A DNA stretch of 64,000 bases. It comes from Patescibacteria group bacterium. GTDB lineage: Bacteria > Patescibacteriota > Patescibacteriia > CAIXNZ01. How positions within the stretch are numbered: position 1 is the stretch's first letter; the number at the start of each line of letters is the position of its first letter. The notes beneath the pieces were generated by a model. It did no database searches. It had not been told where the DNA came from and was given only the letters and a program-made list of their open reading frames with translations. Shown here piece after piece: positions 1-25,885 of this stretch. The stretch is from positions 4,638 to 68,637 of the forward strand of contig JBAZJU010000006.1 of the NCBI GenBank assembly GCA_041651155.1, written 5' to 3'. The translations under genes were made by a program, and so were the position numbers.

Positions 1-399
1 AAATTGCCTTTAGTTTATGGAGACAAAAAGTTGGATAACGAAAAGGTTATCAATGCGATCAAATCAGTCGGGCTTTATCATCGGCTCAATAATTTGTCAA
101 ACCAGCTGTCAGGCGGAGAAAAACAGAGAGTGGCGATTGCCCGAGCCCTGGTCAATGAGCCTTCAATTATTTTTGCAGATGAGCCGACTGGAAATTTGGA
201 CAGTAAATCCGGCAAACAGATCATGGAAATCCTGCAGGATTTAAACGATGAGGGTAAAACAATTGTCTTAGTAACACATGAACAATATACAGCCGAGCAT
301 GCGCAAAGGATTATTAGAATCAGAGATGGAGATATTGTCGGAGATATTCAGGTCGCCGAAAGGCTTTTTGCCAAAATGGAAGACCAACTGACAAAATAA
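1..399 (+). CDS. ABC transporter ATP-binding protein, C-terminal part (5' end outside window); MacB/LolD-like ATPase partner of the downstream FtsX permeases
   Basis: ABC signature LSGGEKQRVAIARAL, Walker B IIFADEPTGNLD, H-loop LVTHE. Reading frame is open from base 1 (aaa precedes first ATG in frame). Confidence 0.9.
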   Translation, partial: KLPLVYGDKKLDNEKVINAIKSVGLYHRLNNLSNQLSGGEKQRVAIARALVNEPSIIFADEPTGNLDSKSGKQIMEILQDLNDEGKTIVLVTHEQYTAEHAQRIIRIRDGDIVGDIQVAERLFAKMEDQLTK

Positions 400-420
400 T
401 GCGAATCTGCGAATAATGCG

Positions 421-524
421 AATTTACGAATGAAGTAATAGAAGTACAATTCGTATATTCGCCTGCCTGCCCTGCCTACCGGCAGGCAGGCGGTAGGCAG
501 GTACAAATTCGTAATTTCGTAGGA
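421..524. repeat. Intergenic repeat family A copy 1: imperfect palindrome of tacgaat/attcgta motifs around a GC-rich interlocked inverted repeat (cctgcctgccctgcctaccggcaggcaggcggtaggcagg), ending in aattcgtaatttcgtagga
   Basis: Seen directly; near-identical copies at 5536-5610 and a shortened copy at 17936-17986, each just upstream of a + strand start codon. Confidence 0.6.
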
Positions 525-579
525 GCATTAACTTGCCAAGCACACAAACCAAGTCCAAGCACAAACAAGCTCAAAACCT

Positions 580-1821
580 ATGCAGTTATCATCCTTACTA
601 AAAATTTCATACACAGCCTTGCTGTCAAAAAAATCCCGAACGTTTTTAACAATGCTCGGGATTATTATTGGCATTGCTTCAGTGATTATTATTATGTCAG
701 TCGGCGCAGGCGCGCAAAGTTTAATTGTAAATCAGATCAAAAGCCAGGGCTCAAACTTGATTGCTATTTTTCCCGGCAAAAGTGATGAAAAAGGACCGCC
801 GCCGAGTGTAATGGGGATTGTAAATACTAGTCTTAAAAATGAAGATATTGATGCGCTAATGAATCCTAATAATGCTCCGCATGTGGTAGCAGCTACAGGC
901 TATAATTCGGGCAGCGCCACATTTTCCTGGCGCGACCAGCAAATGGACGGCACATTCAACGGCGTGAACAGTTTTTTCCCGATTGTGGATGACGCGCCAG
1001 TGGCAGAGGGCAGGTTTTTTACAAAAGAAGAAAATATGTCTTTGGCCAGAGTGGCCATAATCGGCAGCCAGGCTAAGCTTGATCTTTTTGGCGATGCTGA
1101 TCCATTGGGCCAAGAAATAAAAATGAAAAGGGTCTCATTCACAGTTATCGGGGTGATGCCGGCCAGGGGCACGCGAGGCTTTCAAAATCAAGACAGTTTG
1201 ATATTTGTCCCGCAAAATACGGCGCAAAAACTTTTATTAGGCATAAATTATAGTTCTTTGGCCAGGGTCAAAGTGGATAGTGAAAGTAATTTAAATGTAA
1301 CAATCAATGATATTACTTTAACCTTGCGCGAAAGGCATGGCATCACTGATCCTGCCAATGATGATTTTACCATCAGGTCGCAGCAGGATTCTTTAAATGT
1401 GCTGCTATCAGTGACAGATGCTATTAAATTTTTTTTGGCAGCCATTGCCGCCATTTCATTGATAGTTGGCGGCGTGGGCATTATGAATATAATGCTTGTC
1501 TCGGTTTCTGAACGAACTCGGGAAATCGGCCTGAGAAAAGCTGTAGGCGCAAAAAGCAGCTCGATTTCCCTGCAATTTTTAGTTGAATCAGTGATTGTGA
1601 CTTTACTGGGCGGAATTATTGGAATTATTGCCGGCGCAGCGCTCTCGATTTTAGTTGCTTTGGTTGCCCGTTATTTAGGCTATGATTGGGATCTGGCGAT
1701 TTCAATCACTTCTATTTTATTAGCGACTTCTATTTCTATTATAATTGGTTTAATTTTTGGCATTTATCCGGCGCAAAGAGCAGCAAGATTAAATCCGATT
1801 GAGGCTTTGCGTTACGAGTAA
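580..1821 (+). CDS. ABC transporter permease, FtsX/MacB family (N-terminal TM, large periplasmic MacB-like domain, C-terminal FtsX 3-TM bundle)
   Basis: 413 aa. N-terminal TM LTMLGIIIGIASVIIIMSVGAG, conserved REIGLRKAVGA motif before the C-terminal TM helices, downstream of ABC ATPase. Confidence 0.85.
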   Translation: MQLSSLLKISYTALLSKKSRTFLTMLGIIIGIASVIIIMSVGAGAQSLIVNQIKSQGSNLIAIFPGKSDEKGPPPSVMGIVNTSLKNEDIDALMNPNNAPHVVAATGYNSGSATFSWRDQQMDGTFNGVNSFFPIVDDAPVAEGRFFTKEENMSLARVAIIGSQAKLDLFGDADPLGQEIKMKRVSFTVIGVMPARGTRGFQNQDSLIFVPQNTAQKLLLGINYSSLARVKVDSESNLNVTINDITLTLRERHGITDPANDDFTIRSQQDSLNVLLSVTDAIKFFLAAIAAISLIVGGVGIMNIMLVSVSERTREIGLRKAVGAKSSSISLQFLVESVIVTLLGGIIGIIAGAALSILVALVARYLGYDWDLAISITSILLATSISIIIGLIFGIYPAQRAARLNPIEALRYE

Positions 1822-1912
1822 TACTACAGATTACAGATTCTTACAGATATACGAATACAAATTGATAATCAAATCTGTAAATCTGTACGTATCCGTAATC
1901 TGTAGTAGAATT
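1822..1912. repeat. Long imperfect inverted repeat (tactacagattacagattcttacagat ... atctgtaaatctgtacgtatccgtaatctgtagtag) between the two permease genes; possible terminator/attenuator or regulatory palindrome
   Basis: Reverse-complement symmetry is visible by eye around a central tacgaat...attgataatcaaat core. Confidence 0.4.
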
Positions 1913-1927
1913 TAACAAAAAGTAATT

Positions 1928-3196
1928 ATGAACATACCAATCTGGTTAGAACAATTTGAAACGCCAGTTCAGATAGCAAAACAAGCGCTATTAAGAAACA
2001 AGGTCAGAACAATCCTGTCCATTTTAGGCGTGGTCATTGGCATTGCCGCTGTGATTATTGTTTTATCGGTCGGGCAGGGGATAAAGGGGTTTTTAATCGG
2101 ACAACTGACAACATTTGGCACTGATTATGTTGAAGTTGAAGTAAAAGTGCCTTCAACCAGCCATGTTTCAACGGAAAATGCCATTGGCATGGCTACGGGC
2201 ATCCAAATTACAACTCTGAAAGATTCTGACATGAAAGCCATTTTAAAATTAGACAATGTTAAAAATGCTTATTCAGGTTCTTTAACTCAGCAGATAACTT
2301 CTTATCAAAGCCAGAATAAACAGACCTTTATTTTTGCAGTCAGTCCTTCATTTATTGAGATTGATCCGACTAAAATTGAGCAAGGCAGGTTTTTTACTGT
2401 TGATGAAGATAATGCCATGGCCAAAGTGGCTGTCTTGGGTCCGAATTTGAAAAAAACTTTGTTTGGCGATGAAGATGCGATTGGCAAGCAAATCAAAGTC
2501 GGCAAAAATACTTTTAAAGTCATTGGCGTGACAGCTCCAAAAGGCTCTCAGTCGTTTTTTGACTTTGATTCTATGTTGTATCTGCCAATTAATACTGTGC
2601 AAAAATTAATTACCGGCGTTGATTATGTAACCTTTATTTTCGTGCAGTTAAAAGATATTTCACAAGCTGAAATCACGGCTGCTGATATCACTTCCTTAAT
2701 GCGCGATCTGCACAAAATTACTGACCCGAATAAAGATGATTTTGCAGTCGTCACTTCAGCCGAGGCTATGGATATGTTAAATACTGTAGTTGGCGCGATA
2801 ACCTTGTTATTAATTGCTATTGCCGGCATTTCACTGGTTGTGGGCGGCATTGGCATTATGAATATTATGTATGTGTCAGTGGCTGAACGCACTTTTGAAA
2901 TTGGTTTGCGAAAAGCAGTAGGCGCTAAAAGCGCTGACATTTTGCGGCAATTTTTAATGGAAGCGATTTTTGTGACTTTTTCCGGCGGGATTGTGGGCAT
3001 AATTATTGGTTCATTGGTTTCTTATCTGATTGCTGTAATTTCAACTTACTTGGGTTTTAGCTGGCAATTTGTGATGTCGCCATTGTATTTGCTTTTGGCC
3101 TGCGGAGTCTCCATAATGGTTGGCGTAATCTCTGGTTTGTATCCCGCGCGGAGCGCGGCTAAATTGGATCCGATTGTGGCCTTGCGGCAAGAGTAA
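1928..3196 (+). CDS. ABC transporter permease, FtsX/MacB family (paralog of preceding gene)
   Basis: 422 aa. Same architecture and same ERTFEIGLRKAVGAKS motif as 580-1821; tandem paralogs. Confidence 0.85.
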   Translation: MNIPIWLEQFETPVQIAKQALLRNKVRTILSILGVVIGIAAVIIVLSVGQGIKGFLIGQLTTFGTDYVEVEVKVPSTSHVSTENAIGMATGIQITTLKDSDMKAILKLDNVKNAYSGSLTQQITSYQSQNKQTFIFAVSPSFIEIDPTKIEQGRFFTVDEDNAMAKVAVLGPNLKKTLFGDEDAIGKQIKVGKNTFKVIGVTAPKGSQSFFDFDSMLYLPINTVQKLITGVDYVTFIFVQLKDISQAEITAADITSLMRDLHKITDPNKDDFAVVTSAEAMDMLNTVVGAITLLLIAIAGISLVVGGIGIMNIMYVSVAERTFEIGLRKAVGAKSADILRQFLMEAIFVTFSGGIVGIIIGSLVSYLIAVISTYLGFSWQFVMSPLYLLLACGVSIMVGVISGLYPARSAAKLDPIVALRQE

Positions 3197-3230
3197 AAAG
3201 GGAAAGAAGAGTAAAAAGGGTAAAAGGGGT

Positions 3231-3290
3231 GGCGGCTAAGGGCGCTCAATTAATTTAATTAATTGGGTTTAAATCTCGCCCTTAGCCGCC
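3231..3290. terminator. Hairpin element copy 1: 14-bp perfect stem ggcggctaagggcg / cgcccttagccgcc with a 32-nt AT-rich palindromic loop, followed by tttaaattt; part of a ~75-95 bp direct repeat also present at 4520-4600
   Basis: Seen directly; second copy differs by one base in the loop. Confidence 0.5.
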
Positions 3291-3459
3291 TTTAAATTTG
3301 AGGGAAAATTCGTATTATTTGTAGCGGATTTGTAGATTAGTATCCTATTGACTTTTTTGTTTTAAAATGTAAACTTACTTTAATAAGAGTTCTTTGAAAG
3401 CGTCAGTAGGCGCTAAAACTCAAAAAAATGGGTTTTTAACCCAAAGAAGGAGAATGGCG

Positions 3460-4284
3460 ATGGGAGAAAATCGTCAGGAAGATTTGTCTGTACAGGCAGA
3501 TCAAAAGTTTGGTCGGCAACTAAAGGAGATCATCGGCCAGTATCTGGCAGGTGATTTAACAGATAAACATTTACAAGGACTGATTGAGCACCGTAATACT
3601 TTTGACGCAATTGAATATCCTGAGTTGGATTTTGCGGTCAAAGTTTTAGGCGAAAACAAAGTAGTCAGTTCTAATGAAGCAGCTATTGCTTGGGAACTGG
3701 ACCCTGAAGGAAAAATTTGGCCTGTTGAAGTATTGGAAAATTTGGTGAAGATCAGATATTCCAAGGCAACCTTGCGCAAGGCAGCCAAAGAAAACAGAAA
3801 GGGCTTAGCTGATTGGCGACTTATCTATATCCATGGTACGAGCCTGCGTGAACAGCGCGAAAAGCGCGGCACAGACCAAGGCAAACAACCCTGTTTTTAC
3901 AAAGAGGGCATTTGGTGGCTGAAAGCCTCGGAGGACAAATGGGCGACTCATAAGCCCCAAGCCGGATACTACCTCATCAATTGTTGCGGCCAGTTCGGCA
4001 ATCTGGACTGGAAGTCGCAGGAGCAGGAGATAGCCAAACTCGGCAAGGAGTATGAGCGTTGCCATGAAACAGTTTTCAGTGAAGCCATTTTGACCATTTA
4101 TATGGTTTATAATGGTGAGCGGATTGCTGAGAAATGGTATCACTGGGGAATTTCGTTGGCTTCCGATGGCGACCGCGTCTTCGTCGGCGATCTGGTTGCC
4201 ATTGGCCTCGGTGTCAGCAACCGCTGGGATGGCTTCTCCAATCAAGACCTGCGTGTCGCGCTCGCCTGGAAGTTTGACTATTGA
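3460..4284 (+). CDS. Hypothetical protein, conspicuously GC-rich 3' half relative to the surrounding genome; no recognisable domain
   Basis: ORF 3394-4284. Start placed at ATG 3460 (MGENRQ) because GAAGGAG sits 7 nt upstream; ATG 3454 is too close to the SD. Local GC far above neighbours (e.g. gaccgcgtcttcgtcggcgatctggttgccattggcctcgg). Confidence 0.6.
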   Translation: MGENRQEDLSVQADQKFGRQLKEIIGQYLAGDLTDKHLQGLIEHRNTFDAIEYPELDFAVKVLGENKVVSSNEAAIAWELDPEGKIWPVEVLENLVKIRYSKATLRKAAKENRKGLADWRLIYIHGTSLREQREKRGTDQGKQPCFYKEGIWWLKASEDKWATHKPQAGYYLINCCGQFGNLDWKSQEQEIAKLGKEYERCHETVFSEAILTIYMVYNGERIAEKWYHWGISLASDGDRVFVGDLVAIGLGVSNRWDGFSNQDLRVALAWKFDY

Positions 4285-4330
4285 CCCTTGAACACTTGAC
4301 CTTTTTGAATTTTTGAACCTTGAATTTTTT

Positions 4331-4365
4331 CCCCGTTGGATTTATATCTGGCGGGGATTTTTTTG
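4331..4365 (+). terminator. Rho-independent terminator candidate (ccccg ... cgggg stem then T8) after the GC-rich gene
   Basis: Stem ccccgttggatttatatctggcgggg followed by attttttt. Confidence 0.5.
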
Positions 4366-4519
4366 TAATGCGAATGTTTGAATGCTAATGGTGCTAATAT
4401 AGAATTTGAATGTTTTTATGTTATCGCGGACTTTAGTCCGCGAAGTACACGGAGTAATTACGGGGATTAAAGTCCCCTGTAAAGATACCCCTAATTTACT
4501 AATAAGTTATTTTAAATGC

Positions 4520-4579
4520 GGCGGCTAAGGGCGCTCAATTAATTTAGTTAATTGGGTTTAAATCTCGCCCTTAGCCGCC
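4520..4579. terminator. Hairpin element copy 2 (same 14-bp stem and loop as 3231-3290)
   Basis: Near-identical direct repeat of 3231-3300, so the GC-rich gene is bracketed by the two copies. Confidence 0.5.
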
Positions 4580-4634
4580 TTTTTAAATTTAGGGAAATTC
4601 GTATATTTGTATATTATTCGTAATTCGTAGAGCA

Positions 4635-4661
4635 TTAGCAGTCCCACTTGACGAGTGCTAA
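4635..4661. promoter_or_regulatory. CIRCE operator (HrcA binding site) TTAGCAGTC-N9-GAGTGCTAA, one mismatch to consensus TTAGCACTC-N9-GAGTGCTAA; a TATAAT hexamer lies at 4673-4678
   Basis: Inverted repeat read directly upstream of hrcA; CIRCE is the established operator of HrcA-controlled hrcA-grpE-dnaK operons. Confidence 0.7.
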
Positions 4662-4756
4662 CTGGCTAATGTATAATACAAATGTTACGAATCTATGCTA
4701 ATGCTACGAATTATATTCGAGTCATTCGCATAATTCGTAGATTCGCATTTTTATAT

Positions 4757-5452
4757 ATGAACGAGCGTCAAAAAAAGTTATTAAACCTCATCATTAACGA
4801 GCACATTAATACAGCCGAGCCCGTTGGTTCAGGTTTTTTGGTTGAAAGTACTGGCTTAGAGTTGTCATCAGCCACTGTCAGAAATGAAATGGCTGATTTG
4901 GAAAAAGAAGGTTTTATTTATCAGCCGCACACTTCAGCCGGCCGCGTCCCGACTGAAAAGGGCTACCAGTTTTTCGTTGATAATTTTGTGGAAAAGCGGG
5001 CAATTAAAGCGACCTGGTTAAAATCATTTGAACAGGTTTTAAAAGGCAAGTTGCAGAATGACCAGCTTTTAAAACAATTAGCCAAAGAAGTGGTGGAATT
5101 AGCTGATGCCACAGTGATTGTGGCTTTTGATAAAGAAAATATTTATTACACGGGTTTATCCAATTTATTTAAAAAGCCGGAATTTAGCGAGCAGAATTTA
5201 ATTCAGGATATTTCCGAAGTCATTGATCATTTGGATGAGGAAGTGGCCAAAATTTTTGATAAAATAAATAAAGTTGAAATTTTGATAGGCAAGAAAAATC
5301 CATTTGGCAATGATTGTTCGTCAATCATCGGCAAATATCAGTTGAAAGATAAAAAGTCAGGTTTGTTTATAATTCTGGGGCCAAAGAGAATGGATTATGG
5401 GAAAAATTTGGCTTTGGTGGAATATATACGCAATTCGCTAATCAAGATTTAA
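4757..5452 (+). CDS. hrcA: Heat-inducible transcription repressor HrcA
   Basis: Start chosen at MNERQKKLLNLIINEHINTAEPVGSGFLVE, a typical HrcA N-terminus with winged-helix. ORF track extends to 4682, but that region overlaps the CIRCE/promoter. Followed by grpE-dnaK. Confidence 0.8.
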   Translation: MNERQKKLLNLIINEHINTAEPVGSGFLVESTGLELSSATVRNEMADLEKEGFIYQPHTSAGRVPTEKGYQFFVDNFVEKRAIKATWLKSFEQVLKGKLQNDQLLKQLAKEVVELADATVIVAFDKENIYYTGLSNLFKKPEFSEQNLIQDISEVIDHLDEEVAKIFDKINKVEILIGKKNPFGNDCSSIIGKYQLKDKKSGLFIILGPKRMDYGKNLALVEYIRNSLIKI

Positions 5453-5535
5453 TGCTTTTGGATAGATTGAAATGACAAATGACAAAATTCAAATAACAAA
5501 TAAATACTAAATAACAAATTTCAAATCCCAAAACA

Positions 5536-5610
5536 ATTTGTATATTCACCTGCCTGCCCTGCCTACCGGCAGGCAGGCGGCAGGCAGGTACTAATTCGTA
5601 ATTTCGTAGG
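5536..5610. repeat. Intergenic repeat family A copy 2 (ttgtatattcacc-tgcctgccctgcctaccggcaggcaggcggcaggcaggtactaattcgtaatttcgtagga), 6 nt before grpE start
   Basis: Near-identical to 448-524. Confidence 0.6.
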
Positions 5611-5615
5611 AAAAT

Positions 5616-6095
5616 ATGACAGATGAAAAAGAACAACCAAACAACAATCAGCCAACCGAATTAGCCAGGCTCCAGGCCCAATGCGACGAGTATTTAAACG
5701 GCTGGAAAAGGGCCAAGGCTGATTATATTAATTTTAAAAAAGAAACTGAAGATAAACAGGCAATGCTTTTTGAATTTGCCAATGCCACTTTATTAATGGA
5801 AGTTTTGCCGATTTATGATAATTTGAAAAAAGCAATTTTAGTCGCTGGGGAAGAAAAAAATAATTGGCTGGAAGGGATTAAACAAATTAAAAAGCAGCTG
5901 GAAGATTTATTAAAAGATCATGGCGTTGAGGAAATAAAAACTTTGGGTGAGAAATTTAATCCAGAGTTTCACGAAGCGATTTCCAAAGAAAAAAAGGAAG
6001 GCGTTGAAGCTGATACCATTATTGTTGAATTAAGTTCCGGTTATTTATTAAAAGGCAAGGTTTTGGTTGCGGCCAAAGTAATTGTGGCAGAATAA
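5616..6095 (+). CDS. grpE: Nucleotide exchange factor GrpE
   Basis: 159 aa, coiled-coil N-terminus, position between hrcA and dnaK, GrpE-like C-terminal motif (LKGKVLVAAKV). Confidence 0.85.
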   Translation: MTDEKEQPNNNQPTELARLQAQCDEYLNGWKRAKADYINFKKETEDKQAMLFEFANATLLMEVLPIYDNLKKAILVAGEEKNNWLEGIKQIKKQLEDLLKDHGVEEIKTLGEKFNPEFHEAISKEKKEGVEADTIIVELSSGYLLKGKVLVAAKVIVAE

Positions 6096-6271
6096 TAATT
6101 GAAGCCATTGGCCATAAAGCTCGGCCTAGGCTGGTTATTATGTTGTTTTACAAAAACAAGCTAAAACTAGGCCGAAGCCTGGCCATTTGGCATTGGTACT
6201 ATGAAAATTTTATTAAAAAAGAAAAAGCCGTAGTGTTTAGGCTACGGCATAAAGCTGGCGTATAGGTTGAA

Positions 6272-6553
6272 CTAATTGTTTTTCTTTTGGTTATACCAGG
6301 GAATGAGCACTGAGACGAGGTCGGCCGGTGATTGAAGGATTGCTTCTTGCCCAAGAAAGGTAATTTGTTTTTCTTCTCCTGGTACAAGGCAGAACACATG
6401 GTTGGGAATACCCCGCAGTTCTTGTTTGGCGCTTATTTGTTTTTTGCCTTTAAGCAAGTCTGGGTGAACGAAAACCATTCGGCCTTTTGTTGCGGGTTTT
6501 TGCAATCCCACGTACCCCTTTGAATGCAAAGCTCTTACTGTTTCTCCCGGCAT
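6272..6553 (-). CDS. Small hypothetical protein (93 aa) on opposite strand between grpE and dnaK; weak resemblance to HicA-like toxin N-terminal pattern
   Basis: Strong SD (AAGGAGG) 8 nt upstream of ATG at 6553 on minus strand. Pattern ETVRALHSKGYVGL...KGRMVFVHPD loosely resembles HicA (ELIKLLEEDGW...GSHHHFKHP) but lacks GSH; family assignment not reliable. Confidence 0.45.
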   Translation of the reverse strand: MPGETVRALHSKGYVGLQKPATKGRMVFVHPDLLKGKKQISAKQELRGIPNHVFCLVPGEEKQITFLGQEAILQSPADLVSVLIPWYNQKKNN

Positions 6554-6720
6554 TATCCTTTTTCCTCCTTTTTGTTTTTTGGTAGTTTTATAGGATAAGT
6601 ATAAAATACCATTTTTAGGATAACAGGCTGAAATAGATTTGTCAATAAATAAATTTGGAAAATCTGAAATCTGTGTGTTTCAGCTTTCAGCTTTCATAAT
6701 TAATAATTAATAAAAAAAAT

Positions 6721-8649
6721 ATGTCAAAAATTCTAGGTATTGACCTGGGAACTACAAATTCCTGTATGGCCATTATTGAAGGGGGTGAACCAAAAGTTTT
6801 AGAAAATAAAGAAGGTTCAAGAACCACGCCTTCTATTGTGGCGATTTCTAAAACAGGGGAGCGTTTAGTCGGCCAGTTAGCCAAAAGGCAGGCTGTGACC
6901 AATCCCTCTAACACAATTTTTTCCATTAAACGCTTGATTGGCAGGCGCTGGACAGATCCTGAAGTGCAAAAAGATAAAGAAACTTTGCCTTACAAAATCA
7001 TTCAAGCTGGTGATGGCGTTAAGGTGGCCATGAATGGCCAGGAATTTACGCCTCAGGAAATTTCAGCCATGATTTTGCAGAAATTAAAAGCTGATGCTGA
7101 GGAAAAACTGGGTGAAAAAATTACCGAAGCAATTATTACTGTCCCGGCTTATTTTGATGATTCGCAAAGACAGGCAACTAAGGATGCTGGCAGAATCGCT
7201 GGTCTGGAAGTTAAAAGAATTATTAATGAACCAACCGCTGCTGCTTTGGCCTATGGTTTTGATAAAAAAAAGGATCAGCAGATCGCTGTTTATGATTTAG
7301 GCGGCGGTACTTTTGATATTTCCATTTTAGATGTCTCAGCAAATACCGTGGAAGTTAAATCTACTAATGGCGATACTCATTTGGGCGGTGATGATTTTGA
7401 TAAAACAATTATTGATTGGATACTTGCAGAATTTAAAAGGCAAAGCGGGATTGATATTTCCAAAGATCCCATGGCTTTGCAAAGAATTAAAGAAGCTGGT
7501 GAAAAAGCCAAGATTGAATTATCTACTGCCGTGGAAACTGAAATCAACCAGCCTTTTATTACTCAGGGTTCTGATGGCAGTCCTGTTCATTTGGTCATGA
7601 AAATAACCCGCGCCAAACTGGAAGAATTAGTCGGCGATTTGGTGGACAAAACAATGGAGCCGGTGAAAAAAGCCTTGGCTGACGCTGGTTTAAAGCCAGG
7701 CGAAATTGAAGAAGTGGTTATGGTCGGCGGCATGACTCGTATGCCTTTAGTCCAGAAAAAAGTAGAAGAATTTTTTGGCAGAAAGCCACATCTGGGAGTT
7801 AATCCTGATGAAGTGGTCGCTGTTGGCGCTGCTGTCCAGGCCGGTGTTTTGCAGGGCGAAGTTAAAGATGTGCTTTTGCTTGATGTCACGCCTTTGTCAT
7901 TGGGCATTGAAACAATGGGCGGGATTGCCACCAAATTAATAACCAGAAATACTACGATCCCAACTGCCAAATCTCAGATATTTTCCACTGCTGCTGATTC
8001 GCAGACTTCAGTGGAAGTTAATGTTTTACAAGGCGAGCGCGAAATGGCTGCTGATAATAAATCACTTGGCCGCTTTATTTTGTCTGGCATACCTCCAGCG
8101 CCAAGAGGCGTGCCACAAGTTGAAGTGACTTTTGACCTTGATGCTAATGGCATTTTAAATGTTAAGGCAGTTGATAAAGCCACTAATAAAGAGCAGAAAA
8201 TCACAATTACTGCTTCTTCCGGTTTATCCAAGGAAGAAATTGACAAAATGCAAAAAGATGCGGAACTGCATGCTGAAGAAGATAAAAAGAAAAAGGAATT
8301 GATTGAAGCCAAAAATTCCGCTGACACTTTAATTTACTCAACTGAAAAAACCTTAAATGAATTAGGCGACAAGGTTAATGCTGATTTGAAAAAAGAAGTG
8401 CTGGATAAGATTGAGGAATTGAAAAAGGTGAAAGATGGTAATGATGCCGAAGTGATTAAAAAAGCTAATGACGCGGTCATGCAATCTGCACAGAAAGTTG
8501 GAGCGGAAATGTACAAGAACCAGCAGGAAGCCCAGGCAAAAGCTGGCACGCAACCTGGCCAAGGCCAAGGTGAGCCTGGCGCAGAAGAACCTAAGAAAGA
8601 TGAAGAAAAGAAGAGTCCTGAAGAGGGTGAATTTACCGAAAAGAAATAA
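6721..8649 (+). CDS. dnaK: Molecular chaperone DnaK (Hsp70)
   Basis: 642 aa. [19 protein letters not shown], full NBD+SBD, acidic GEP-rich C-terminal tail. Confidence 0.97.
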
Positions 8650-8686
8650 TATTGATTTATTTTTCGGTACTTCATAATAAACCACT

Positions 8687-9388
8687 ATGAAAAAAATTAT
8701 TTTTAGTATCGTGATATTGTTTGTTGCTATCCCAGTTTTAGTAAACGCTAGGTCTGGTTGCTGTTCTCATCATGGTGGTGTCTGCGGATGCTCTTGCTGT
8801 GATGGTTCGGCTTTATCAGCAACATGCGCGCCATATTATCCAGAGTGCAATTCTGCCCCAGTTGCTTATTGTGGCGATTATTTATGTAATAATAACGAAA
8901 CTTGTAATACTTGCCCCAAAGATTGTGGCTCTTGTCCTGCTCCAGTAGAATATTGTGGCGATGGAGTCTGTAATAATAATGAGACATGCCTGTTATGCTC
9001 TAAAGATTGTGGTTCCTGTCCCACCCCAGAACAATATTGTGGTGATGGAACCTGTAATAATGATGAAACCTGTTTATCTTGTTCTAAAGACTGTGGTTTA
9101 TGCCCGACTGCCTCGGTAAAAAATAATTCAGTAAATGTCAATGCGGTAAATAATAATCAAGAGAATTTAAATATTCCGAAACAGGAAACAAATACCTTGT
9201 CCACGGAAAGCGATAGTACCGTGCCTGTAAGTTATTCTAGCAATCCCAGTAATTCCGATTCTGCTACTAGTACTGATGGCTCAGAGGCATCTGGAGGCGT
9301 TATAGGCGCGCTATTCTTGGGCATTGTTTATTGGATATACAGAAGTAATAAGAAAAACAAAATAAATAATAATAAAGAAACGAAATAA
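8687..9388 (+). CDS. Cys-rich secreted, membrane-anchored repeat protein: signal peptide, three near-identical YCGDGxCNNxETCxxCxKDCGSCP modules, Ser/Asn-rich linker, C-terminal TM anchor
   Basis: 233 aa, about 35 Cys. The nucleotide sequence shows the triplicated ~60-bp module at roughly 8860-9110. Confidence 0.7.
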   Translation: MKKIIFSIVILFVAIPVLVNARSGCCSHHGGVCGCSCCDGSALSATCAPYYPECNSAPVAYCGDYLCNNNETCNTCPKDCGSCPAPVEYCGDGVCNNNETCLLCSKDCGSCPTPEQYCGDGTCNNDETCLSCSKDCGLCPTASVKNNSVNVNAVNNNQENLNIPKQETNTLSTESDSTVPVSYSSNPSNSDSATSTDGSEASGGVIGALFLGIVYWIYRSNKKNKINNNKETK

Positions 9389-9410
9389 ATTTAATAATTA
9401 ATTTAAAATT

Positions 9411-9896
9411 ATGGCATGGGATACAATTTTAGCTTCTATAGGAGGCGCGATTATTGGCGCTTTTATAGCAAGTTATATTTCTTACAGAATTTATAAAAAG
9501 CAGGTTTTAAGAGGACATTATAATGATATTGCCCTAAGGATACAAAAAGCTATTACATTATCTCCAATATTGAATAATCCTGGCTTTAAAGATTCTGATA
9601 GATTTAATGCAAAATTAGAGATAGATACACTCTTAAACCAAATTTGGGCCCTTTCCTTGATTGGCTTGCCAGACAAGATTTTTCAAAAATTAGATAATTT
9701 ATTTCCAAAAAGTGGTTCTGCTGCAGTTACTCCTCAAAATTTAAATCAGTTTTATTTTGAACTGAGGAAATCATTAAATAGGTGGACAAAAGTAGATTTA
9801 CAAAATATACTCAATAGGTTTATTTCAATTTCACATAGACCCTCGAAAGAAGAAACTGAAAATGAATCCCAAAAAAATAAAACCGAAAAAGTATAA
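9411..9896 (+). CDS. Hypothetical membrane protein (one N-terminal TM helix)
   Basis: 161 aa. Very AT-rich; precedes the trypsin-like protease with a 26-nt gap. Confidence 0.55.
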   Translation: MAWDTILASIGGAIIGAFIASYISYRIYKKQVLRGHYNDIALRIQKAITLSPILNNPGFKDSDRFNAKLEIDTLLNQIWALSLIGLPDKIFQKLDNLFPKSGSAAVTPQNLNQFYFELRKSLNRWTKVDLQNILNRFISISHRPSKEETENESQKNKTEKV

Positions 9897-9922
9897 TAAT
9901 TTTTTAAGATAATTTTAAATTT

Positions 9923-10636
9923 ATGAACCAATCAAGCCATATCCAACAAATTAATATTTTACCAGTTTGTGCAGGGGTACGCGCGGTAGGATTAGTAAGA
10001 CCCAGATTTGATCCTATACAGCAGGGTTTTTTACCGCCTCAATTAGATGTAATAGGAACAGCCTTTCTGTTAAAAGGCTATGAGGTAATAATCACTTGCG
10101 AGCATGTTGTAAGAGATTTTGTAAATAATCCTACTGAAATAATCGGAATGCTTGTAATAGGGAAACAAGGAATTTATTTTCCAGTTTCGATTGATTCTAC
10201 TGATTTTGCCCACGATTTAGCAATTCTAAGGTTTAGGAAAAATCCTAATATAACAGATGAAAAATTTAAAGAATTTTTAGGTAATGAATTCTCCACTGGT
10301 CTTGAATTAACAGATAGATATCCCGATGTATCAACTAAAGTTGGTTACGCAGGCTACCCTATGGGTACTCAATTATTGAATCAAAAACACGATCCCACAT
10401 ATTCAGAAGGGGTTGTGGGTATAAAATTGTGCGAGACAGATATCAGGAAAGAAATTAGGATAACAGGACCAGTTGCGGGAGGATTTAGTGGCTCGCCAAT
10501 TGTATTGAAAGAAAGTCCACAAAAAGTTATAGCAGCGCTTGCAAATAGCCCAACTAAAGAAGCAGGTGATGCAAATATTTTTTCTGGGATTTCATGGGAA
10601 CATATTAAGGCTATAGCAACCTTGGCAAAGTCATAA
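9923..10636 (+). CDS. Trypsin-like (S1/chymotrypsin-fold) serine protease, apparently cytoplasmic (no signal peptide)
   Basis: Catalytic-triad-like motifs TCEHVV (His), AHDLAIL (Asp), GGFSGSPIV (Ser, cf. GDSGGP). Confidence 0.6.
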   Translation: MNQSSHIQQINILPVCAGVRAVGLVRPRFDPIQQGFLPPQLDVIGTAFLLKGYEVIITCEHVVRDFVNNPTEIIGMLVIGKQGIYFPVSIDSTDFAHDLAILRFRKNPNITDEKFKEFLGNEFSTGLELTDRYPDVSTKVGYAGYPMGTQLLNQKHDPTYSEGVVGIKLCETDIRKEIRITGPVAGGFSGSPIVLKESPQKVIAALANSPTKEAGDANIFSGISWEHIKAIATLAKS

Positions 10637-11005: not shown

Positions 11006-11857
11006 ATGCAAAAGCAAATTATTATTAAATTACATAAGAATTTTGAGGATTGCTCCCATGAAAATGACGGTGTGGAGTTTTGGTATGCTAGAGAATTACA
11101 AAGTCTTCTAGGCTATGATCGTTGGGAGAATTTTGAAAATGCCATAAAAAAGGCTAAAATCGCCTGCGAAAACTCAAAACAAAATACTGCTGATCATTTT
11201 CGTGACGTCACGAAAACGATCCCTATGCCCAAAGAAGCGAGCAAGGGAATACCCGATATTATGCTTACCCGTTATGCATGTTATCTTATAGCTCAAAATG
11301 GTGACCCAAGGAAAGATGAAATCGCTTTTGCCATGACCTATTTTGCTGTGCAGACCAGGAAACAAGAAGTTGTGGAACAAAGAATAGAACAATGGGAAAG
11401 ATTGCAGGCGCGAGAAAAGCTTTCATTGTCTGAAAAAGAATTGTCAGGAGTTTTGTTTGAACGAGGAGTAGATGGCGCCGGGTTTGCCCGAATTCGCAGT
11501 AAAGGAGACGCGGCATTATTTGGCGGTCACACGACTCAAGAGATGAAAAGTAAGCTGGGAGTTGCGGATAATAGACCATTAGCTGATTTCTTGCCCCGCG
11601 TGACAATTAAAGCCAAGGATTTGGCGAATGAAATTACCAGTTTTAATGTTAAACGAGATAAGTCTTTGAAGGGCGAAACGCCAATTACCTCTGAACATGT
11701 GAAAAATAACCAAAATATCCGCGAGGTTTTAGACAAAAGCGGAATTAGACCTGAAGCCTTGCCTCCGGAAGAAGATATTAAAAAATTAGAACGGAAATTG
11801 AAATCTGAAGATAAAAAATTGCCAAAGAATGTTAAAAAATTAAGTAATAAAAAATAA
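11006..11857 (+). CDS. DinD (DNA-damage-inducible protein D)/Bro-N-like domain protein with Lys-rich C-terminal tail
   Basis: EFWYARELQSLLGYDRWENFENAIKKAKIACENS ... LTRYACYLIAQNGDPRK resembles the DinD/RhuM-type N-terminal domain as I recall it; not verified by search. Confidence 0.55.
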   Translation: MQKQIIIKLHKNFEDCSHENDGVEFWYARELQSLLGYDRWENFENAIKKAKIACENSKQNTADHFRDVTKTIPMPKEASKGIPDIMLTRYACYLIAQNGDPRKDEIAFAMTYFAVQTRKQEVVEQRIEQWERLQAREKLSLSEKELSGVLFERGVDGAGFARIRSKGDAALFGGHTTQEMKSKLGVADNRPLADFLPRVTIKAKDLANEITSFNVKRDKSLKGETPITSEHVKNNQNIREVLDKSGIRPEALPPEEDIKKLERKLKSEDKKLPKNVKKLSNKK

Positions 11858-21225: not shown

Positions 21226-21270
21226 AACCTTCGTCCCGCCCAGCGGGACTACGGTTTGCAAAGGCAAATA
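21226..21270. repeat. Structured repeat family B copy 2 (aaaccttcg-gtcccgcccagcgggac-tacggtttgcaaaggcaaat)
   Basis: See 17788-17831; compensatory stem substitution. Confidence 0.5.
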
Positions 21271-21288
21271 AAAAACAAAAACAAAAAT

Positions 21289-21636
21289 ATGGATAAGAAG
21301 TACGATTTAGAAGATCGCACCTTAGAGCTTGGAAAAGAAATAATTCGTTTATGTAAAACTTTACCTGCTAATACTATAAACTTTAGGCTAATAGATCAGT
21401 CTATTCGCTCTGGGACATCAGTTGGCGCCAATTATCGAGAAGCAAATGAAACTGACACAAAGAAAGATTTTAGATTTAAAATTAGAATTTGTTTAAGAGA
21501 AGCTAGGGAAACAATTTATTGGCTTGAGCTTATAAAAGAGGCTAACCAAAATTTTTCTGCCAGGATTGATAAATTGATTAGTGAGACAAGAGAAATAGTT
21601 AAGATTTTTGGTTCAATTTTGGAGAAATCTAAATAG
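21289..21636 (+). CDS. Four-helix-bundle protein (23S rRNA intervening-sequence-type protein family)
   Basis: Start at MDKKYDLEDRTLELGKEI; motif SVGANYREA ... DF ... REA...E typical of this family. Confidence 0.65.
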   Translation: MDKKYDLEDRTLELGKEIIRLCKTLPANTINFRLIDQSIRSGTSVGANYREANETDTKKDFRFKIRICLREARETIYWLELIKEANQNFSARIDKLISETREIVKIFGSILEKSK

Positions 21637-21737
21637 TTTGTGATTTGCTATCTGTGATTTGCTATTTATTTGAAGCTTGCAATTTGGTGCTTGGGATTTG
21701 AAACAAAGATTTAGGGGGTAAATTTTTTAAAATATTC

Positions 21738-23219
21738 ATGTTAGATTTACAAACCATCAACAATTTAGATACCAAGTCAGTAGGATATTTTCGATTTAAA
21801 CAGTTTGGCAATGAATATCTGCTGACTAATGAAACTGGGGAGTATGTTTTTTTACCTGAAAATAATTTCAAGGAATTTTTAACTGGAAAGCTAGATTCTA
21901 AAAGTGAAAATTTTCAGGAGTTACTAAACAAGTCGTTCCTTAAAGATAAAAATTATCTGGCGAATGCAGTTTTAAAGTATCGCGAGCGCTATCATTTTTT
22001 AAAATTCGGGCCGTCTTTGCATATTGTGGTTGTAACTTTAAGATGCAATCATAAGTGTATTTATTGCCATGCCAGCGCCGGTAGCAGCGAGGATAAAGGT
22101 TTAGACATGGATTTGGCAACTGCCAAGAAAGTAGTAGATACGATTTTTCTCACTACCAATGATGCGATTTGTATTGAGTTCCAGGGCGGAGAGCCGCTTC
22201 TAAATTGGCCGGTGGTTAAATTTATCATTTCTTACGCAGCGGAAAAAAATAAGCTGGAAAAGAAAAATTTAATTTTTAGGCTCGTGTCCAATTTTAGCTT
22301 GATGGATGAAGAAAAAATGAAGTTCCTGATGGACAATGAAGTTTACTTCTGCACTTCGCTTGACGGCGACGAGGAAACTCATAATTATAATCGCATTTAT
22401 ACGGAAGGCAATAGCTATCAGAACGCGGTCAACTGGATAAAAAAGATAAACGCCGAATACGAGGAAGTAAATAAGGGCAAGAAAAAAAATTATTATAGAG
22501 TAGGCGCCTTGATAACTGTGACCAAAAAAACACTGGCTAGTTACAAAGAAGTGATAGATACTTATCTTGAGCTTGGCTTTAAAAGCATTTATCTGCGCTA
22601 TTTATATCCTTATGGCTTTGCCAGGCAAGCCAAAGAAAAAATTTGGTACACAGTAGATGAGTATGTTGACTTTTATAAAAAATCTCTTGATTATATTTTA
22701 GCCAAAAATTATCAGGGCCAGCTTTTTTACGAGAACATGGCCGCGACTTATTTGCGCAAGATTTTAGACCAGGAGGAGCCTCATAATCTGGATATGCGTT
22801 CGCCCTGCGGCGCGGTCATCGGCCAATTATCTTACAATTACAATGGTGATGTGTACACTTGTGATGATTCCAGGTCTCTTTCCAGACTAGGTGATGAAAC
22901 ATTTAAACTGGGCAATATTAAGCAAAATACTTTTAGCGAGCTGGTAAATAACAGTTTATGCAAATCAATGTGCGTTGCCTCATGCACCAATGGCTTGCCT
23001 GGCCATAATGAGAGCGTTTACCAGCCATATTGGGGAGCCTGTCCGGTCTACAATTATTGTCTTTCCGGCAATATATTCCCGGCCATGAAGGAAAATTTTA
23101 AATGGCAAATTGATGAGCAAATTCTTGATTATATTTTTGAAAAATTAAAAGATAAAAAAAATAAGGATATTTTTAAGGAATGGTGCAAAGCTTCACGGCC
23201 GAGAGCGAAATATGAATAA
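21738..23219 (+). CDS. Radical SAM/SPASM-domain peptide-maturase-like enzyme (493 aa)
   Basis: CX3CX2C at LRCNHKCIYCHA, GGEPLL motif, C-terminal Cys-rich SPASM-like region (CGAVIG ... CDDS ... CKSMCVASCTNG ... CPVYNYC). N-terminal region YFRFKQFGNEYLLTNETGEYVFL resembles peptide-maturase N-termini. Confidence 0.85.
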   Translation: MLDLQTINNLDTKSVGYFRFKQFGNEYLLTNETGEYVFLPENNFKEFLTGKLDSKSENFQELLNKSFLKDKNYLANAVLKYRERYHFLKFGPSLHIVVVTLRCNHKCIYCHASAGSSEDKGLDMDLATAKKVVDTIFLTTNDAICIEFQGGEPLLNWPVVKFIISYAAEKNKLEKKNLIFRLVSNFSLMDEEKMKFLMDNEVYFCTSLDGDEETHNYNRIYTEGNSYQNAVNWIKKINAEYEEVNKGKKKNYYRVGALITVTKKTLASYKEVIDTYLELGFKSIYLRYLYPYGFARQAKEKIWYTVDEYVDFYKKSLDYILAKNYQGQLFYENMAATYLRKILDQEEPHNLDMRSPCGAVIGQLSYNYNGDVYTCDDSRSLSRLGDETFKLGNIKQNTFSELVNNSLCKSMCVASCTNGLPGHNESVYQPYWGACPVYNYCLSGNIFPAMKENFKWQIDEQILDYIFEKLKDKKNKDIFKEWCKASRPRAKYE

Positions 23220-23300
23220 CTATAACTTTGGTTGTATTTTACGTTTAAAATCGCACAATGCTTTAAAATTTAATAAAAAGATAGTATAATAAAGATAACT

Positions 23301-23801
23301 ATGCTAAACAAACTGCCAAAACTAAAGAAAAAATTTCAGGAATTTCTTAATGATGAAGAAGGCAAGATAACTAAAAAAGATATTATCATGCTTGGCATTG
23401 GCGCAAGCGCGCTTGGCATCATGGCCGAAGGAATCAATGCTGCTCATGCTGCTACGCCCACTTGTAGCGCAGGTGGTGGAGTTTATACCTCACCGCCAAA
23501 TTATGTTCAATGCAATGAAGGTTGGGCAGGAAGTTCAGGCTGCGGACCTCATGATTGCAACGGCGGTGGCTCGGGCTCAACTACCAATCTATGCCAAAAT
23601 AATTTGTCATACCCTTTGGGTTCTTGCACTAATACCCCCGGAGCTATTTGCGGGGTGGATATAGGAGATACTCATTTCGGCCATAATAATTTTGTTCATA
23701 ATGAAGGAGTAGTCGGTTCTCATTGCTCACACGGCTCTCATGGCTCTCACGGCTCACACGGCTCTCATGGCTCTCATGGCTCTCATGGGTTTGCCGGTTA
23801 A
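23301..23801 (+). CDS. Secreted Cys/Gly-rich protein with C-terminal (Ser-His-Gly)x7 = His-Xaa-Ser repeat tail; candidate radical-SAM substrate (HxsA-like)
   Basis: Charged N-terminal ~30 aa, hydrophobic segment MLGIGASALGIMAEGINAAHAA, 10 Cys core, then SHCSHGSHGSHGSHGSHGSHGSHGFAG. Confidence 0.7.
   Translation: MLNKLPKLKKKFQEFLNDEEGKITKKDIIMLGIGASALGIMAEGINAAHAATPTCSAGGGVYTSPPNYVQCNEGWAGSSGCGPHDCNGGGSGSTTNLCQNNLSYPLGSCTNTPGAICGVDIGDTHFGHNNFVHNEGVVGSHCSHGSHGSHGSHGSHGSHGSHGFAG
23726..23789 (+). repeat. Tandem 9-bp repeat (cayggctcw)x7 encoding the His-Gly-Ser repeats; frame-preserving simple sequence repeat
   Basis: Seen directly: cacggctct catggctct cacggctca cacggctct catggctct catggctct catgggttt. 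Confidence 0.8.
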
Positions 23802-23811
23802 ATTATATTTT

Positions 23812-25881: not shown

Positions 25882-25885
25882 CCAG

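What the first reader, a model, noticed from the sequence alone, without database searches (positions are those of the whole stretch)
3228..4600. GC-rich orphan gene bracketed by two near-identical ~75-95-bp direct repeats carrying a long-stem hairpin
The element ggcggctaagggcg-(32-nt palindromic AT loop)-cgcccttagccgcc-tttaaattt occurs at 3231-3300 and again at 4520-4600, with a single base difference. The gene between them (3460-4284) has clearly higher GC than any neighbour and no recognisable homology. Downstream of the gene lie two further short hairpins (cgcggactttagtccgcg at ~4425-4442, ggggattaaagtcccc at ~4466-4481). The pattern looks like a cassette inserted next to the transporter-operon terminator, with duplication of the terminator/target. 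It may be an integron-like or MITE-mobilised cassette.
Basis: seen in the sequence. Interest (0 to 1): 0.5.

Follow-up and report, generated by a model that had tools for sequence, protein, structure and literature searches.

The report
Hypervariable-protein gene flanked by twin hairpins
The "orphan" gene belongs to a family of lectin-fold proteins that candidate-phyla bacteria diversify with a reverse-transcriptase system (DGR); it is an inserted, partly recombined gene, and its two flanking hairpins are probably copies of a terminator-like module, with no sign of integron or MITE ends.

Summary
A 60-nt hairpin (14-bp perfect outer stem) occurs at 3231-3290 and 4520-4579 with one base difference. 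The gene between the copies is the GC-richest ORF in the window.

- The gene is not an orphan. It belongs to a Patescibacteria family of at least 518 clusters. Its C-terminal domain has the C-type-lectin/FGE fold of DGR variable proteins.
- In one relative, the last 124 nt form a variable region (VR) next to a template repeat, Avd and reverse transcriptase. 18 of 20 differences lie at template adenines. A second copy in that genome is a remote target.
- The window's VR shows the same adenine bias. No template repeat, reverse transcriptase or Avd partner lies within the 64 kb.
- The gene was inserted. Two relatives have permease 2 directly followed by hrcA, with one unrelated hairpin between them.
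- The GC excess is confined to a roughly 500-bp recombinant patch (about 3840-4345) that resembles DGR-linked alleles.
- The hairpins are best read as terminator-like modules. They are conserved at both flanks in a distant relative, with a compensatory stem change and a flipped loop. They lack attC or MITE features.

This is a new member of a known kind, of moderate interest.

The parts
3231..3290 (+). Hairpin copy A: 14-bp perfect outer stem plus 10-bp inner stem with a 9-nt bulge, 35 nt after the permease-2 stop codon
3291..3331 (+). Tail of repeat unit A (TTTAAATTTGAGGGAAAATTCGTATTATTTGTAG): an interrupted T-run followed by an A/T-rich spacer
3348..3375 (+). The gene's own promoter-like site (TTGACT, 16 nt, TAAACT); the -35 hexamer and the bases after it are conserved in L001 and L009, the -10 region is not
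3387..3459 (+). Conserved 5' leader (GAGTTCTTTGAAA, a 6-bp hairpin, ACTCAAA, a second hairpin GGGTTTTTAACCC, then the RBS AAGGAG)
3460..4284 (+). CDS of 274 aa: an N-terminal helical part followed by a C-terminal C-type-lectin/FGE-fold domain of the DGR variable-protein type
3840..4345 (+). GC-rich recombinant patch. It is closer to DGR-linked alleles (L004, L006, L010: 65-90%) than to the syntenic L001 allele (25-73%). Outside the patch, L001 is 82-98% identical. Boundaries are accurate to about 30 nt.
4151..4274 (+). Equivalent of the variable region (VR). Mismatches to the L004 template repeat fall at 20 of 35 template adenines against 17 of 89 other positions (p = 6e-5).
4330..4364 (+). 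The gene's own intrinsic terminator (12-bp stem, T7); conserved in L001, L004, L006, L008 and L009
4425..4477 (+). Twin short hairpins (4425-4442 and 4462-4477) sharing the loop motif GACTTTARTC in opposite orientations. They are absent from L001, L008 and L009 at this point.
4520..4579 (+). Hairpin copy B, differing from copy A at one base (G4546)
4580..4634 (+). Tail of repeat unit B; it runs up to the CIRCE operator and resembles the tail upstream of the gene in L009
4635..4677 (+). CIRCE operator (TTAGCAGTC-N9-GAGTGCTAA, 4635-4661) overlapping the hrcA promoter (4648-4677, 11 of 12 consensus positions); marks the right-hand native flank

Best explanation
The gene 3460-4284 is a stand-alone member of a Patescibacteria family of DGR variable (target) proteins. 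It has a variable N-terminal helical part and a C-type-lectin/FGE-fold domain. In DGR-linked relatives, the last ~40 codons of that domain (the VR) are rewritten by adenine-specific mutagenic retrohoming from a template repeat.

The gene arrived as a self-contained module (promoter, leader, CDS, terminator) between the terminator of a MacB-type ABC-transporter operon and the CIRCE-controlled hrcA-grpE-dnaK promoter. Since then it has been exchanged among related lineages by recombination.

In the window's lineage, a patch of about 500 bp (about 3840-4345) was replaced by a DGR-type allele. The patch holds most of the lectin-fold domain, the VR and the start of the 3' UTR. This replacement accounts for the GC jump.

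The two ~100-nt repeats are copies of one terminator-like module: a 24-bp bulged hairpin, a T-run and an A/T spacer.
- Copy A ends the transporter operon.
- Copy B shields the heat-shock promoter.

Their near-identity within this genome is inferred to come from gene conversion or a recent re-duplication. The flipped loop seen in a relative is inferred to come from recombination between the 14-bp arms.

Shown here: family membership, DGR linkage in relatives, the fold, the insertion, the mosaic structure, and conservation of the hairpin.

Inferred: terminator activity, how the duplication arose, and whether the VR is still being diversified by a DGR elsewhere in the genome.
For: Family:
- 19 close homologues, all from Patescibacteria or unnamed metagenome contigs.
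- A profile search finds 518, 351 and 168 representative clusters at E <= 1e-3, 1e-10 and 1e-30.

DGR link:
- In L004 the homologue's last 124 nt are repeated 513 nt downstream, next to bAvd and an RVT_1 reverse transcriptase.
- L004 VR versus TR: 96 matches, 18 mismatches at template adenines, 2 elsewhere.
- The paralogue on another contig of the same assembly (L006) matches that template at 97 positions, with 16 adenine mismatches and 3 others (ungapped scan). It is therefore a remote target.
- L007 also has an adjacent reverse transcriptase.
- The window's VR shows the adenine bias against the L004 template (20/35 versus 17/89, p = 6e-5). The syntenic L001 allele does not (p = 0.43).

Fold:
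- AF2 model, mean pLDDT 80.6.

Insertion:
- Empty sites in L013 and L014.
- At least 6 genomic contexts.
- Homologues have GC 0.50-0.54 against flanks of 0.30-0.42.

Exchange among lineages:
- dS of the gene's first 120 codons, window versus L001, is 0.24. Five flanking genes give 0.71-1.54.
- dS falls towards the junction in both perm2 and hrcA.

Mosaic: sliding identity and dS.

Hairpin:
- Strong fold followed by T-runs on the + strand in every copy that can be read past the stem.
- Orthologous copy in L009 is 88.5% identical, while perm2 is 68%.
- 14 of 14 outer pairs are kept in 5 copies, with one G-C to U-A compensatory change.
- Empty-site relatives have one hairpin plus T-run at this position.

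Literature: Patescibacteria (CPR) DGRs are cell-encoded, their targets lack known domains, targets are modular, and remote targets are missed by surveys (PMC8144416).
Against: - No template repeat, reverse transcriptase or cognate Avd was found in the 64-kb window. DGR targeting of this particular copy is therefore unproven.
- The four database copies of the protein are identical, so no VR polymorphism is seen. They may come from one sample.
- The consensus terminator scan does not call the long hairpins. The T-run of copy A is interrupted (TTTAAATTT). The gene already has a canonical terminator, which makes copy B redundant.
- The closest relative, L001, has a different hairpin family at both flanks plus a third copy elsewhere. 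A second hairpin family in the window (446-524 and 5533-5611) sits in spacers that are only 2-51 nt long in L013 and L014. This suggests such hairpins can spread on their own.
- The low dS of the gene's 5' part could reflect constraint on synonymous sites rather than recent exchange.
Confidence: 0.65

Rival explanations
1. The hairpin units are small, self-spreading palindromic repeats of the REP/REPIN or MITE type. They colonised the spacers on both sides of the gene independently of its insertion. Their bracketing of the gene is incidental.
For: - A second hairpin family has two 95%-identical copies nested outside the first pair (446-524 and 5533-5611). They lie in spacers that are 2-51 nt long in L013 and L014.
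- L001 has three copies of another twin-hairpin element in 12.8 kb, including one before dnaK.
- The window has an extra twin hairpin at 4425-4477 that relatives lack.
- The size and shape (14-bp inverted arms, 60 nt in total) resemble a REPIN. Y1_Tnp genes occur in related genomes.
Against: - Only two copies occur in 64 kb.
- Exact-stem scans of 596 Gb of genomes and of JGI metagenomes hit one contig each, both next to this gene.
- Both flanks carry the hairpin in L009, whose permease 2 is only 64% identical to the window's. The arrangement is therefore old and stable.
- There is no target-site duplication. Pfam found no Y1 transposase in the window ORFs scanned.
Confidence: 0.22
2. This is an integron-like cassette, or another cassette bounded by recombination sites. 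The hairpins would be attC-like or att sites recognised as folded DNA by a site-specific or HUH recombinase that moves the gene.
For: - Direct repeats of a long imperfect palindrome bracket a single foreign gene.
- Similarity between the window and L009 starts exactly at the 5' edge of hairpin A.
- The asymmetric bulge block AATTGGGTTYAAATYT is conserved even in the flipped copy.
- The gene occupies many different sites across the phylum.
Against: - Pfam found no integrase, transposase or HUH gene in the window ORFs scanned.
- No RYYYAAC/GTTRRRY core sites are present (read from the sequence).
- The gene has its own promoter, a 230-nt upstream region and a terminator, unlike promoterless cassettes.
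- Homologues at the other sites (L003-L007, L010-L012) lack these hairpins.
- One copy in L009 has the loop inverted, which a strand-specific folded site should not tolerate.
Confidence: 0.06
3. This is a fossil target. The gene's family is DGR-derived, but this genome no longer has a cognate DGR, so the VR is frozen and the protein now works as an ordinary, invariant binding protein.
For: - No TR, RT or cognate Avd within 64 kb.
- The protein sequence is identical in four assemblies.
- The syntenic alleles in L001, L009 and L008 have lost the adenine-bias signature and drifted to native GC, so loss of diversification has happened at this very locus.
Against: - The window allele keeps the adenine-bias pattern, an intact ORF and high GC.
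- It appears to have been refreshed recently by a DGR-type patch.
- Remote targets on other contigs are documented in a relative (L006 with L004).
- DGR reverse transcriptases are extremely common in this phylum (more than 6,444 homologues).
Confidence: 0.4

Closest known systems
DGR variable proteins with solved structures: TvpA (Treponema denticola, 2Y3C), Mtd (Bordetella phage BPP-1, 1YU0), TaqVP (Thermus aquaticus, 5VF4)
   Different: No detectable sequence similarity: no Pfam, PDB-sequence, PHROG or PADLOC hit. The N-terminus is helical and I saw no obvious hydrophobic stretch in it (read by eye, not predicted). This copy has no adjacent TR, Avd or RT.
Cell-encoded Patescibacteria (CPR) DGRs ('clade 2' of Roux et al. 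2021, PMC8144416) and their remote targets
   Same: Same phylum. Targets lack recognisable domains. Targets are modular, with variable N-termini on a conserved C-terminal domain. One DGR serves an adjacent and a remote target (L004 and L006).
   Different: Here the target stands alone between housekeeping operons. Its lectin-fold and VR part has been swapped in by intragenic recombination. Roux et al. proposed such recombination but did not show it for a specific locus.
DGR target-site hairpin/cruciform (Guo et al. 2011, PMC3240598)
   Same: A GC-rich stem-loop lies downstream of the VR: the gene's own terminator at 4330-4357.
   Different: The known element has a 7-10-bp stem and a 4-nt GRNA loop, 4-34 bp from the VR. 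Here the nearest hairpin is about 56 nt from the end of the VR and its loop is not GRNA. The long repeated hairpins lie 170 nt upstream and 236 nt downstream of the coding sequence, so they do not fit.
Intrinsic (rho-independent) terminators; REP/REPIN elements
   Same: A stable GC-rich hairpin followed by a T-run, directly after the last gene of an operon. The sequence is palindromic and repeated.
   Different: The stem is unusually long (24 bp with a 9-nt bulge) and the T-run is interrupted. Copy number is two, where REP elements have tens to hundreds.
Integron attC sites and gene cassettes
   Same: Imperfect palindromes of about 60 nt bracket a single ORF.
   Different: No integrase, no R''/R' core sites, the cassette has its own promoter, and the palindrome stems are perfect with no extrahelical bases.

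Membership tests
DGR variable (target) protein | C-terminal C-type-lectin/FGE-type fold that carries the variable region | tested here: met
DGR variable (target) protein | A VR paired with a template repeat that differs from it almost only at template adenines | tested here: inconclusive
   Met in homologues: L004, 18 of 20 mismatches at TR adenines; L006 against the L004 TR, 16 of 19 in the ungapped scan. One search, over a slightly different span, gives 16 of 20 for L006. The window's VR shows the adenine bias against the L004 TR (p = 6e-5). No cognate TR exists in the 64-kb window, and the rest of the genome was not available.
DGR variable (target) protein | A DGR-type reverse transcriptase (and usually Avd) in the same genome | tested here: inconclusive
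   There is no RT in the window (tblastn; Pfam). A 23S_rRNA_IVP/Avd-like ORF at 21256-21636 is not next to any RT or TR, and BLASTP finds no similarity to the L004 Avd. Other contigs of the genome could not be reached; the RT search could not be tied to this genome.
DGR variable (target) protein | IMH plus a GC-rich hairpin (7-10-bp stem, GRNA loop) 4-34 bp after the VR | tested here: not met
   The nearest hairpin (4330-4357) is about 56 nt past the VR end, has a 12-bp stem and a non-GRNA loop. The rule was derived from phage DGRs and may not hold for Patescibacteria.
Integron gene cassette / attC | Integron integrase, or an array of attC sites with R''/R' cores (RYYYAAC and GTTRRRY), and promoterless ORFs | tested here: not met
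   Pfam found no integrase in the ORFs scanned. No core motifs are present in either unit (sequence). The gene has its own promoter and terminator.
MITE | Terminal inverted repeats, a target-site duplication, and many dispersed copies | tested here: not met
   The inverted arms are the hairpin itself. The flanks share no duplication (AAGGGGT|..|TTTAAAT versus TAAATGC|..|TTTTTAA). There are 2 copies in 64 kb, and collection scans hit one contig each.
REP/REPIN | Tens to hundreds of intergenic copies per genome and a cognate RAYT (Y1 transposase) | tested here: inconclusive
   Two copies, and no Y1_Tnp among the window ORFs scanned. The whole genome was not available. Other hairpin families at this locus do behave like spreading elements.
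Intrinsic terminator | A stable GC-rich stem-loop immediately followed by a U-tract, at the 3' end of a transcription unit | tested here: inconclusive
   dG is -37 and -38 kcal/mol. U3-5 follows the stem in every copy that can be read past it. Copy A lies 35 nt after the perm2 stop. The consensus scan does not list either copy, because of the bulged long stem. No transcript data were available.

The most novel reading that the evidence does not exclude
The hairpin-to-hairpin segment (3231-4579) may be a discrete transferable unit. It would be a hairpin-bounded cassette that carries DGR target genes between Patescibacteria genomes, inserted or excised by recombination at the folded 60-nt palindromes, either by an unknown hairpin-recognising enzyme or by recombination between the direct repeats. 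Three observations fit this reading but do not prove it. Similarity between the window and the distant relative L009 begins exactly at the hairpin's 5' edge. The bulge block is conserved even in a flipped copy. Synonymous divergence is 3-6 times lower inside the unit than in the flanking genes.
Probability: 0.08. Interest if true: 0.7.

Novelty: new member of a known kind. Interest (0 to 1): 0.35.

Why it matters
- It assigns an unannotated protein family (no Pfam model, at least 518 clusters) to the DGR variable-protein class.
- It shows a case in which a DGR target sits alone between housekeeping operons. Surveys that require an adjacent reverse transcriptase miss such targets.
- It documents, at one locus, three layers of turnover in ultra-small genomes: presence or absence of the gene, replacement of the lectin-fold and VR part by intragenic recombination, and replacement of the flanking hairpin elements.
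- This supports the proposal that DGR targets evolve as modules.
- The hairpin bracket is mainly a caution: repeated palindromes around a foreign gene need not be recombination sites.

Tried and rejected
- Pfam, PHROGs, PADLOC and PDB-sequence searches of the protein gave nothing.
- Rfam on 1-10000 gave only sub-threshold chance hits at the hairpins and leader.
- BLASTN, an adenine-tolerant ungapped scan and tblastn for TR, RT and Avd in the window found none.
- The direct repeat at 13125/13832 was considered as a possible VR/TR pair. I set it aside without a direct test. It lies at the 5' ends of adjacent ORFs, neither the VR nor the L004 template repeat matched that region, and no RT is nearby.
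- The second GC-rich ORF, 52777-53484, is unrelated to the gene.
- The TR in L007 was not found despite the adjacent RT.
- VR polymorphism among cluster members: all four are identical.
- An RT homologue search meant to find this genome's RT returned more than 6,444 hits, and none could be tied to this genome.
- Viral contigs hold no relative of the protein.
- Phage and plasmid collections hold no match to the repeat unit.
- Flanking direct repeats around homologues at other sites: only L006 has one, a 37-nt promoter duplicate at 100% identity. L003, L004, L005 and L010-L012 have none.
- My first covariation count was mis-registered by one column and was redone.
- Native-gene explanation: rejected because of the empty sites and the mosaic structure.
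Full report
OBSERVATION

The hairpin GGCGGCTAAGGGCG-N32-CGCCCTTAGCCGCC is present at 3231-3290 and 4520-4579. The arm occurs four times, counting both strands, against 0.24 expected, and no shuffle reaches that number. The two 60-nt hairpins differ at one base.

The repeat continues for another 40-65 nt, with three indels and further mismatches. Folding shows a 24-bp stem with a 9-nt 3' bulge, at -37 and -38 kcal/mol (z -4.8 and -5.8).

The ORF 3460-4284 has the highest GC of the 50 ORFs of at least 150 aa (0.477 against 0.379 +/- 0.042). The stretch 3820-4284 is in the top 0.1% of windows of that size. The first 45% of the gene is near-native at 0.415. The two short hairpins are at 4425-4442 and 4462-4477.

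SETTING

The neighbours are:
- an ABC ATPase (4-399);
- two MacB/FtsX permeases (580-1821 and 1928-3196);
- the gene itself;
- hrcA (4757-5452), grpE and dnaK.

A CIRCE operator (4635-4661) overlaps the best promoter match of the region (4648-4677). The gene has its own promoter-like site (3348-3375), a leader conserved in relatives, and the best terminator match of the region (4330-4357 followed by T7).

WHAT THE GENE IS

The gene is not an orphan.
- The word-indexed search gave 19 homologues at 39-66% identity. All are from Patescibacteria or unnamed metagenome contigs.
- A profile search of 1.84 billion representatives gave 518, 351 and 168 clusters at E <= 1e-3, 1e-10 and 1e-30. The conserved part is the C-terminal ~210 residues, and N-termini vary.

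In L004 (GCA_964590345.1) the homologue lies next to a bAvd gene and an RVT_1 reverse transcriptase. Its last 124 nt are repeated 513 nt downstream. The two copies differ at 20 positions, of which 18 are adenines in the downstream copy. This is the signature of a diversity-generating retroelement (DGR).

A paralogue on another contig of the same assembly (L006) matches that template at 97 positions, with 16 adenine mismatches and 3 others (ungapped scan). One DGR therefore serves an adjacent target and a remote one. L007 also has an adjacent RT.

The window's equivalent segment (4151-4274) differs from the L004 template at 20 of 35 adenines but at only 17 of 89 other positions (p = 6e-5). The syntenic allele in L001 shows no such bias (p = 0.43).

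The window holds no template repeat, reverse transcriptase or cognate Avd. The only related item is a 23S_rRNA_IVP/Avd-like ORF at 21256-21636, which has no detectable similarity to the L004 Avd. All four database copies of the protein are identical. Whether this copy is still diversified from elsewhere in the genome is therefore open.

Roux et al. 2021 (PMC8144416) describe the matching background. Patescibacteria (CPR) DGRs are cell-encoded, their targets lack known domains, targets are modular, and remote targets are missed by surveys.

IT IS AN INSERTION, AND A MOSAIC

Two relatives show an empty site. L013 (HrcA 83% identical) and L014 (77%) have the same synteny, but perm2 is followed after 136 and 201 nt by hrcA. 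Between them lies a single compound hairpin plus T-run of unrelated sequence, directly before CIRCE.

Homologues occupy at least six other chromosomal positions. Everywhere except the L001/L009 group they are far more GC-rich than their flanks (0.50-0.54 against 0.30-0.42).

Divergence between the window and its closest relative L001 is uneven.
- Five flanking genes have dS 0.71-1.54.
- The first 120 codons of the gene have dS 0.24.
- dS falls towards the junction within both perm2 and hrcA.

This pattern fits recent exchange of the segment by homologous recombination. Constraint on synonymous sites cannot be excluded, and the segments are short.

Sliding identity shows the mosaic.
- Up to about 3820 the window matches L001 at 82-98%.
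- From about 3850 to 4330 it matches L001 at only 25-73%, but the DGR-linked alleles of L004, L006 and L010 at 65-90%.
- From about 4360 it matches L001 again at 83%.

dS gives the same picture: window-L006 0.75 and window-L004 0.89, against window-L001 1.88 for this part. The patch includes a ~45-nt 3'-UTR segment (TTGAAC...TTGAAT) that is present in L003, L004 and L006 but absent from L001, L008 and L009. The GC anomaly coincides with this patch.

THE HAIRPINS

Scans for the exact stems with any 20-45-nt loop hit one contig each, in 596 Gb of species-representative genomes and in the JGI metagenomes. Both contigs carry a homologue of the gene.

L009 has this layout:
- the 3' end of perm2;
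- a hairpin with a compensatory G-C to U-A change in its stem;
- the same tail, promoter and leader, then the gene and its terminator;
- a second hairpin whose loop is inverted.

L008 has the gene, the terminator, the hairpin and tail, then an IS-like element.

By perm2, L009 is as distant from the window as the empty-site genomes are (64% aa against 65-68%). Yet its upstream hairpin is 88.5% identical to the window's, while perm2 is 68% at the nucleotide level. All 14 outer pairs are kept in all five copies. This is a small sample, and two of the copies were selected by the search pattern itself.

The closest relative, L001, instead has an unrelated twin-hairpin element at both flanks and a third copy before dnaK.

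The window has a second repeated hairpin (446-524 and 5533-5611, 95% identical), nested outside the first pair. It lies in spacers that are only 2-51 nt long in L013 and L014.

This clade therefore accumulates and replaces intergenic hairpins. The pair around the gene, however, is old, conserved and tied to this locus.

I read each unit as a terminator-like module: a stable stem followed by a T-run on the + strand in every copy that can be read past the stem. Copy A sits after the operon's last gene. Copy B sits where the empty-site genomes have their single terminator, before the hrcA promoter.

The near-identity of the two copies in this genome must then be secondary, from gene conversion or re-duplication, because the arrangement predates the split from L009.

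Integron and MITE readings fail their defining features:
- Pfam found no integrase or transposase in the ORFs scanned;
- no attC core sites and no target-site duplication;
- the gene has its own promoter;
- no hairpins around homologues at other sites;
- no match to the repeat unit in phage or plasmid collections.

VERDICT

The feature is real, and the gene is foreign. It is a stand-alone, recombinant member of a DGR variable-protein family that is already known in kind for this phylum. The hairpin bracket is most likely a duplicated terminator-like module.

What remains open:
- whether a DGR elsewhere in the genome still rewrites 4151-4274;
- whether the hairpins have any role in moving the gene (I put this at about 8%).

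Noticed in passing
window 446-524 and 5533-5611: A second repeated hairpin (core CGCCTGCCTGCC...GGCAGGCAGGCG; 95% identical over 79 nt). It lies in the ABC-ATPase/permease-1 spacer and the hrcA/grpE spacer, nested outside the first pair. Relatives L013 and L014 have spacers of only 2-51 nt at these two places, so both copies look like insertions.
   Followed up: partly
window 1822-1907; L009 1500-1530: A 31-nt-arm inverted repeat (TACTACAGATTACAGAT...) fills the permease-1/permease-2 spacer, which is 17 nt in L013. A similar TACAGATTACAGAT motif lies downstream of the gene in L009.
   Followed up: no
window 398-435, 4367-4400, 4596-4740; L009 340-375; L001 6870-6935: Intergenic spacers are filled with GCGAAT/ACGAAT/ATTCGTA motifs repeated every 10-11 nt. 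AATTCGTA occurs 12 times against 2.2 expected. The helical phasing suggests curved DNA or a binding-site array.
   Followed up: partly
window 3387-3424; L006 1130-1170: A 5' leader (GAGTTCWTTGAAA followed by a 6-bp hairpin) is identical or nearly so (one mismatch in L001) upstream of the gene in the window, L001 and L009. It also precedes a different gene in L006, where 3 of the 6 pairs changed on both sides and stayed paired. It may be a shared cis-regulatory RNA.
   Followed up: partly
window 21256-32175 (also 47592-49025 and 53529-54569): A cluster of eight radical-SAM/SPASM genes, plus an ORF (23301-23801) with a 9-nt tandem repeat encoding a collagen-like stretch and a peptidase-A24-like protein. 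An Avd-like 23S_rRNA_IVP ORF (21256-21636) lies just upstream. It looks like a peptide-modification cluster.
   Followed up: no
L001 7221-8379; L008 about 205-1330: An IS-like element with a 334-aa ORF that has no Pfam hit, and termini GGGATGTTATAATTAATTTGGTTGG / CCAACCAAATTAATTATATCTACC. Apparently identical copies (compared by eye) sit in two different contexts. In L001 it separates the CIRCE/promoter from hrcA. In L008 it sits in the tail of the downstream hairpin.
   Followed up: partly
L006 68-104 and 1093-1129: At another insertion site, the homologue is flanked by a 37-nt promoter sequence repeated at 100% identity, once before the gene and once before the next gene. This is a second case of duplicated regulatory DNA around this gene family.
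   Followed up: partly
window 8853-9072: Three 84-nt tandem repeats encode a Cys-rich motif (YCGD..CNNNE) inside ORF 8687-9388, which has no Pfam match.
   Followed up: no
window 38279-40834 and 11006-11857: A TrwB/VirD4-type coupling-protein homologue and a Bro-N domain protein: mobile-element-like genes in an otherwise housekeeping window.
   Followed up: no
window 1928-3196 and 4757-5452, compared with L001: Synonymous divergence falls towards the gene on both sides: perm2 2.1, then 0.87, then 0.58; hrcA 0.54, then 0.68, then 0.99 moving away. This looks like the footprint of a recombination tract centred on the inserted gene.
   Followed up: partly
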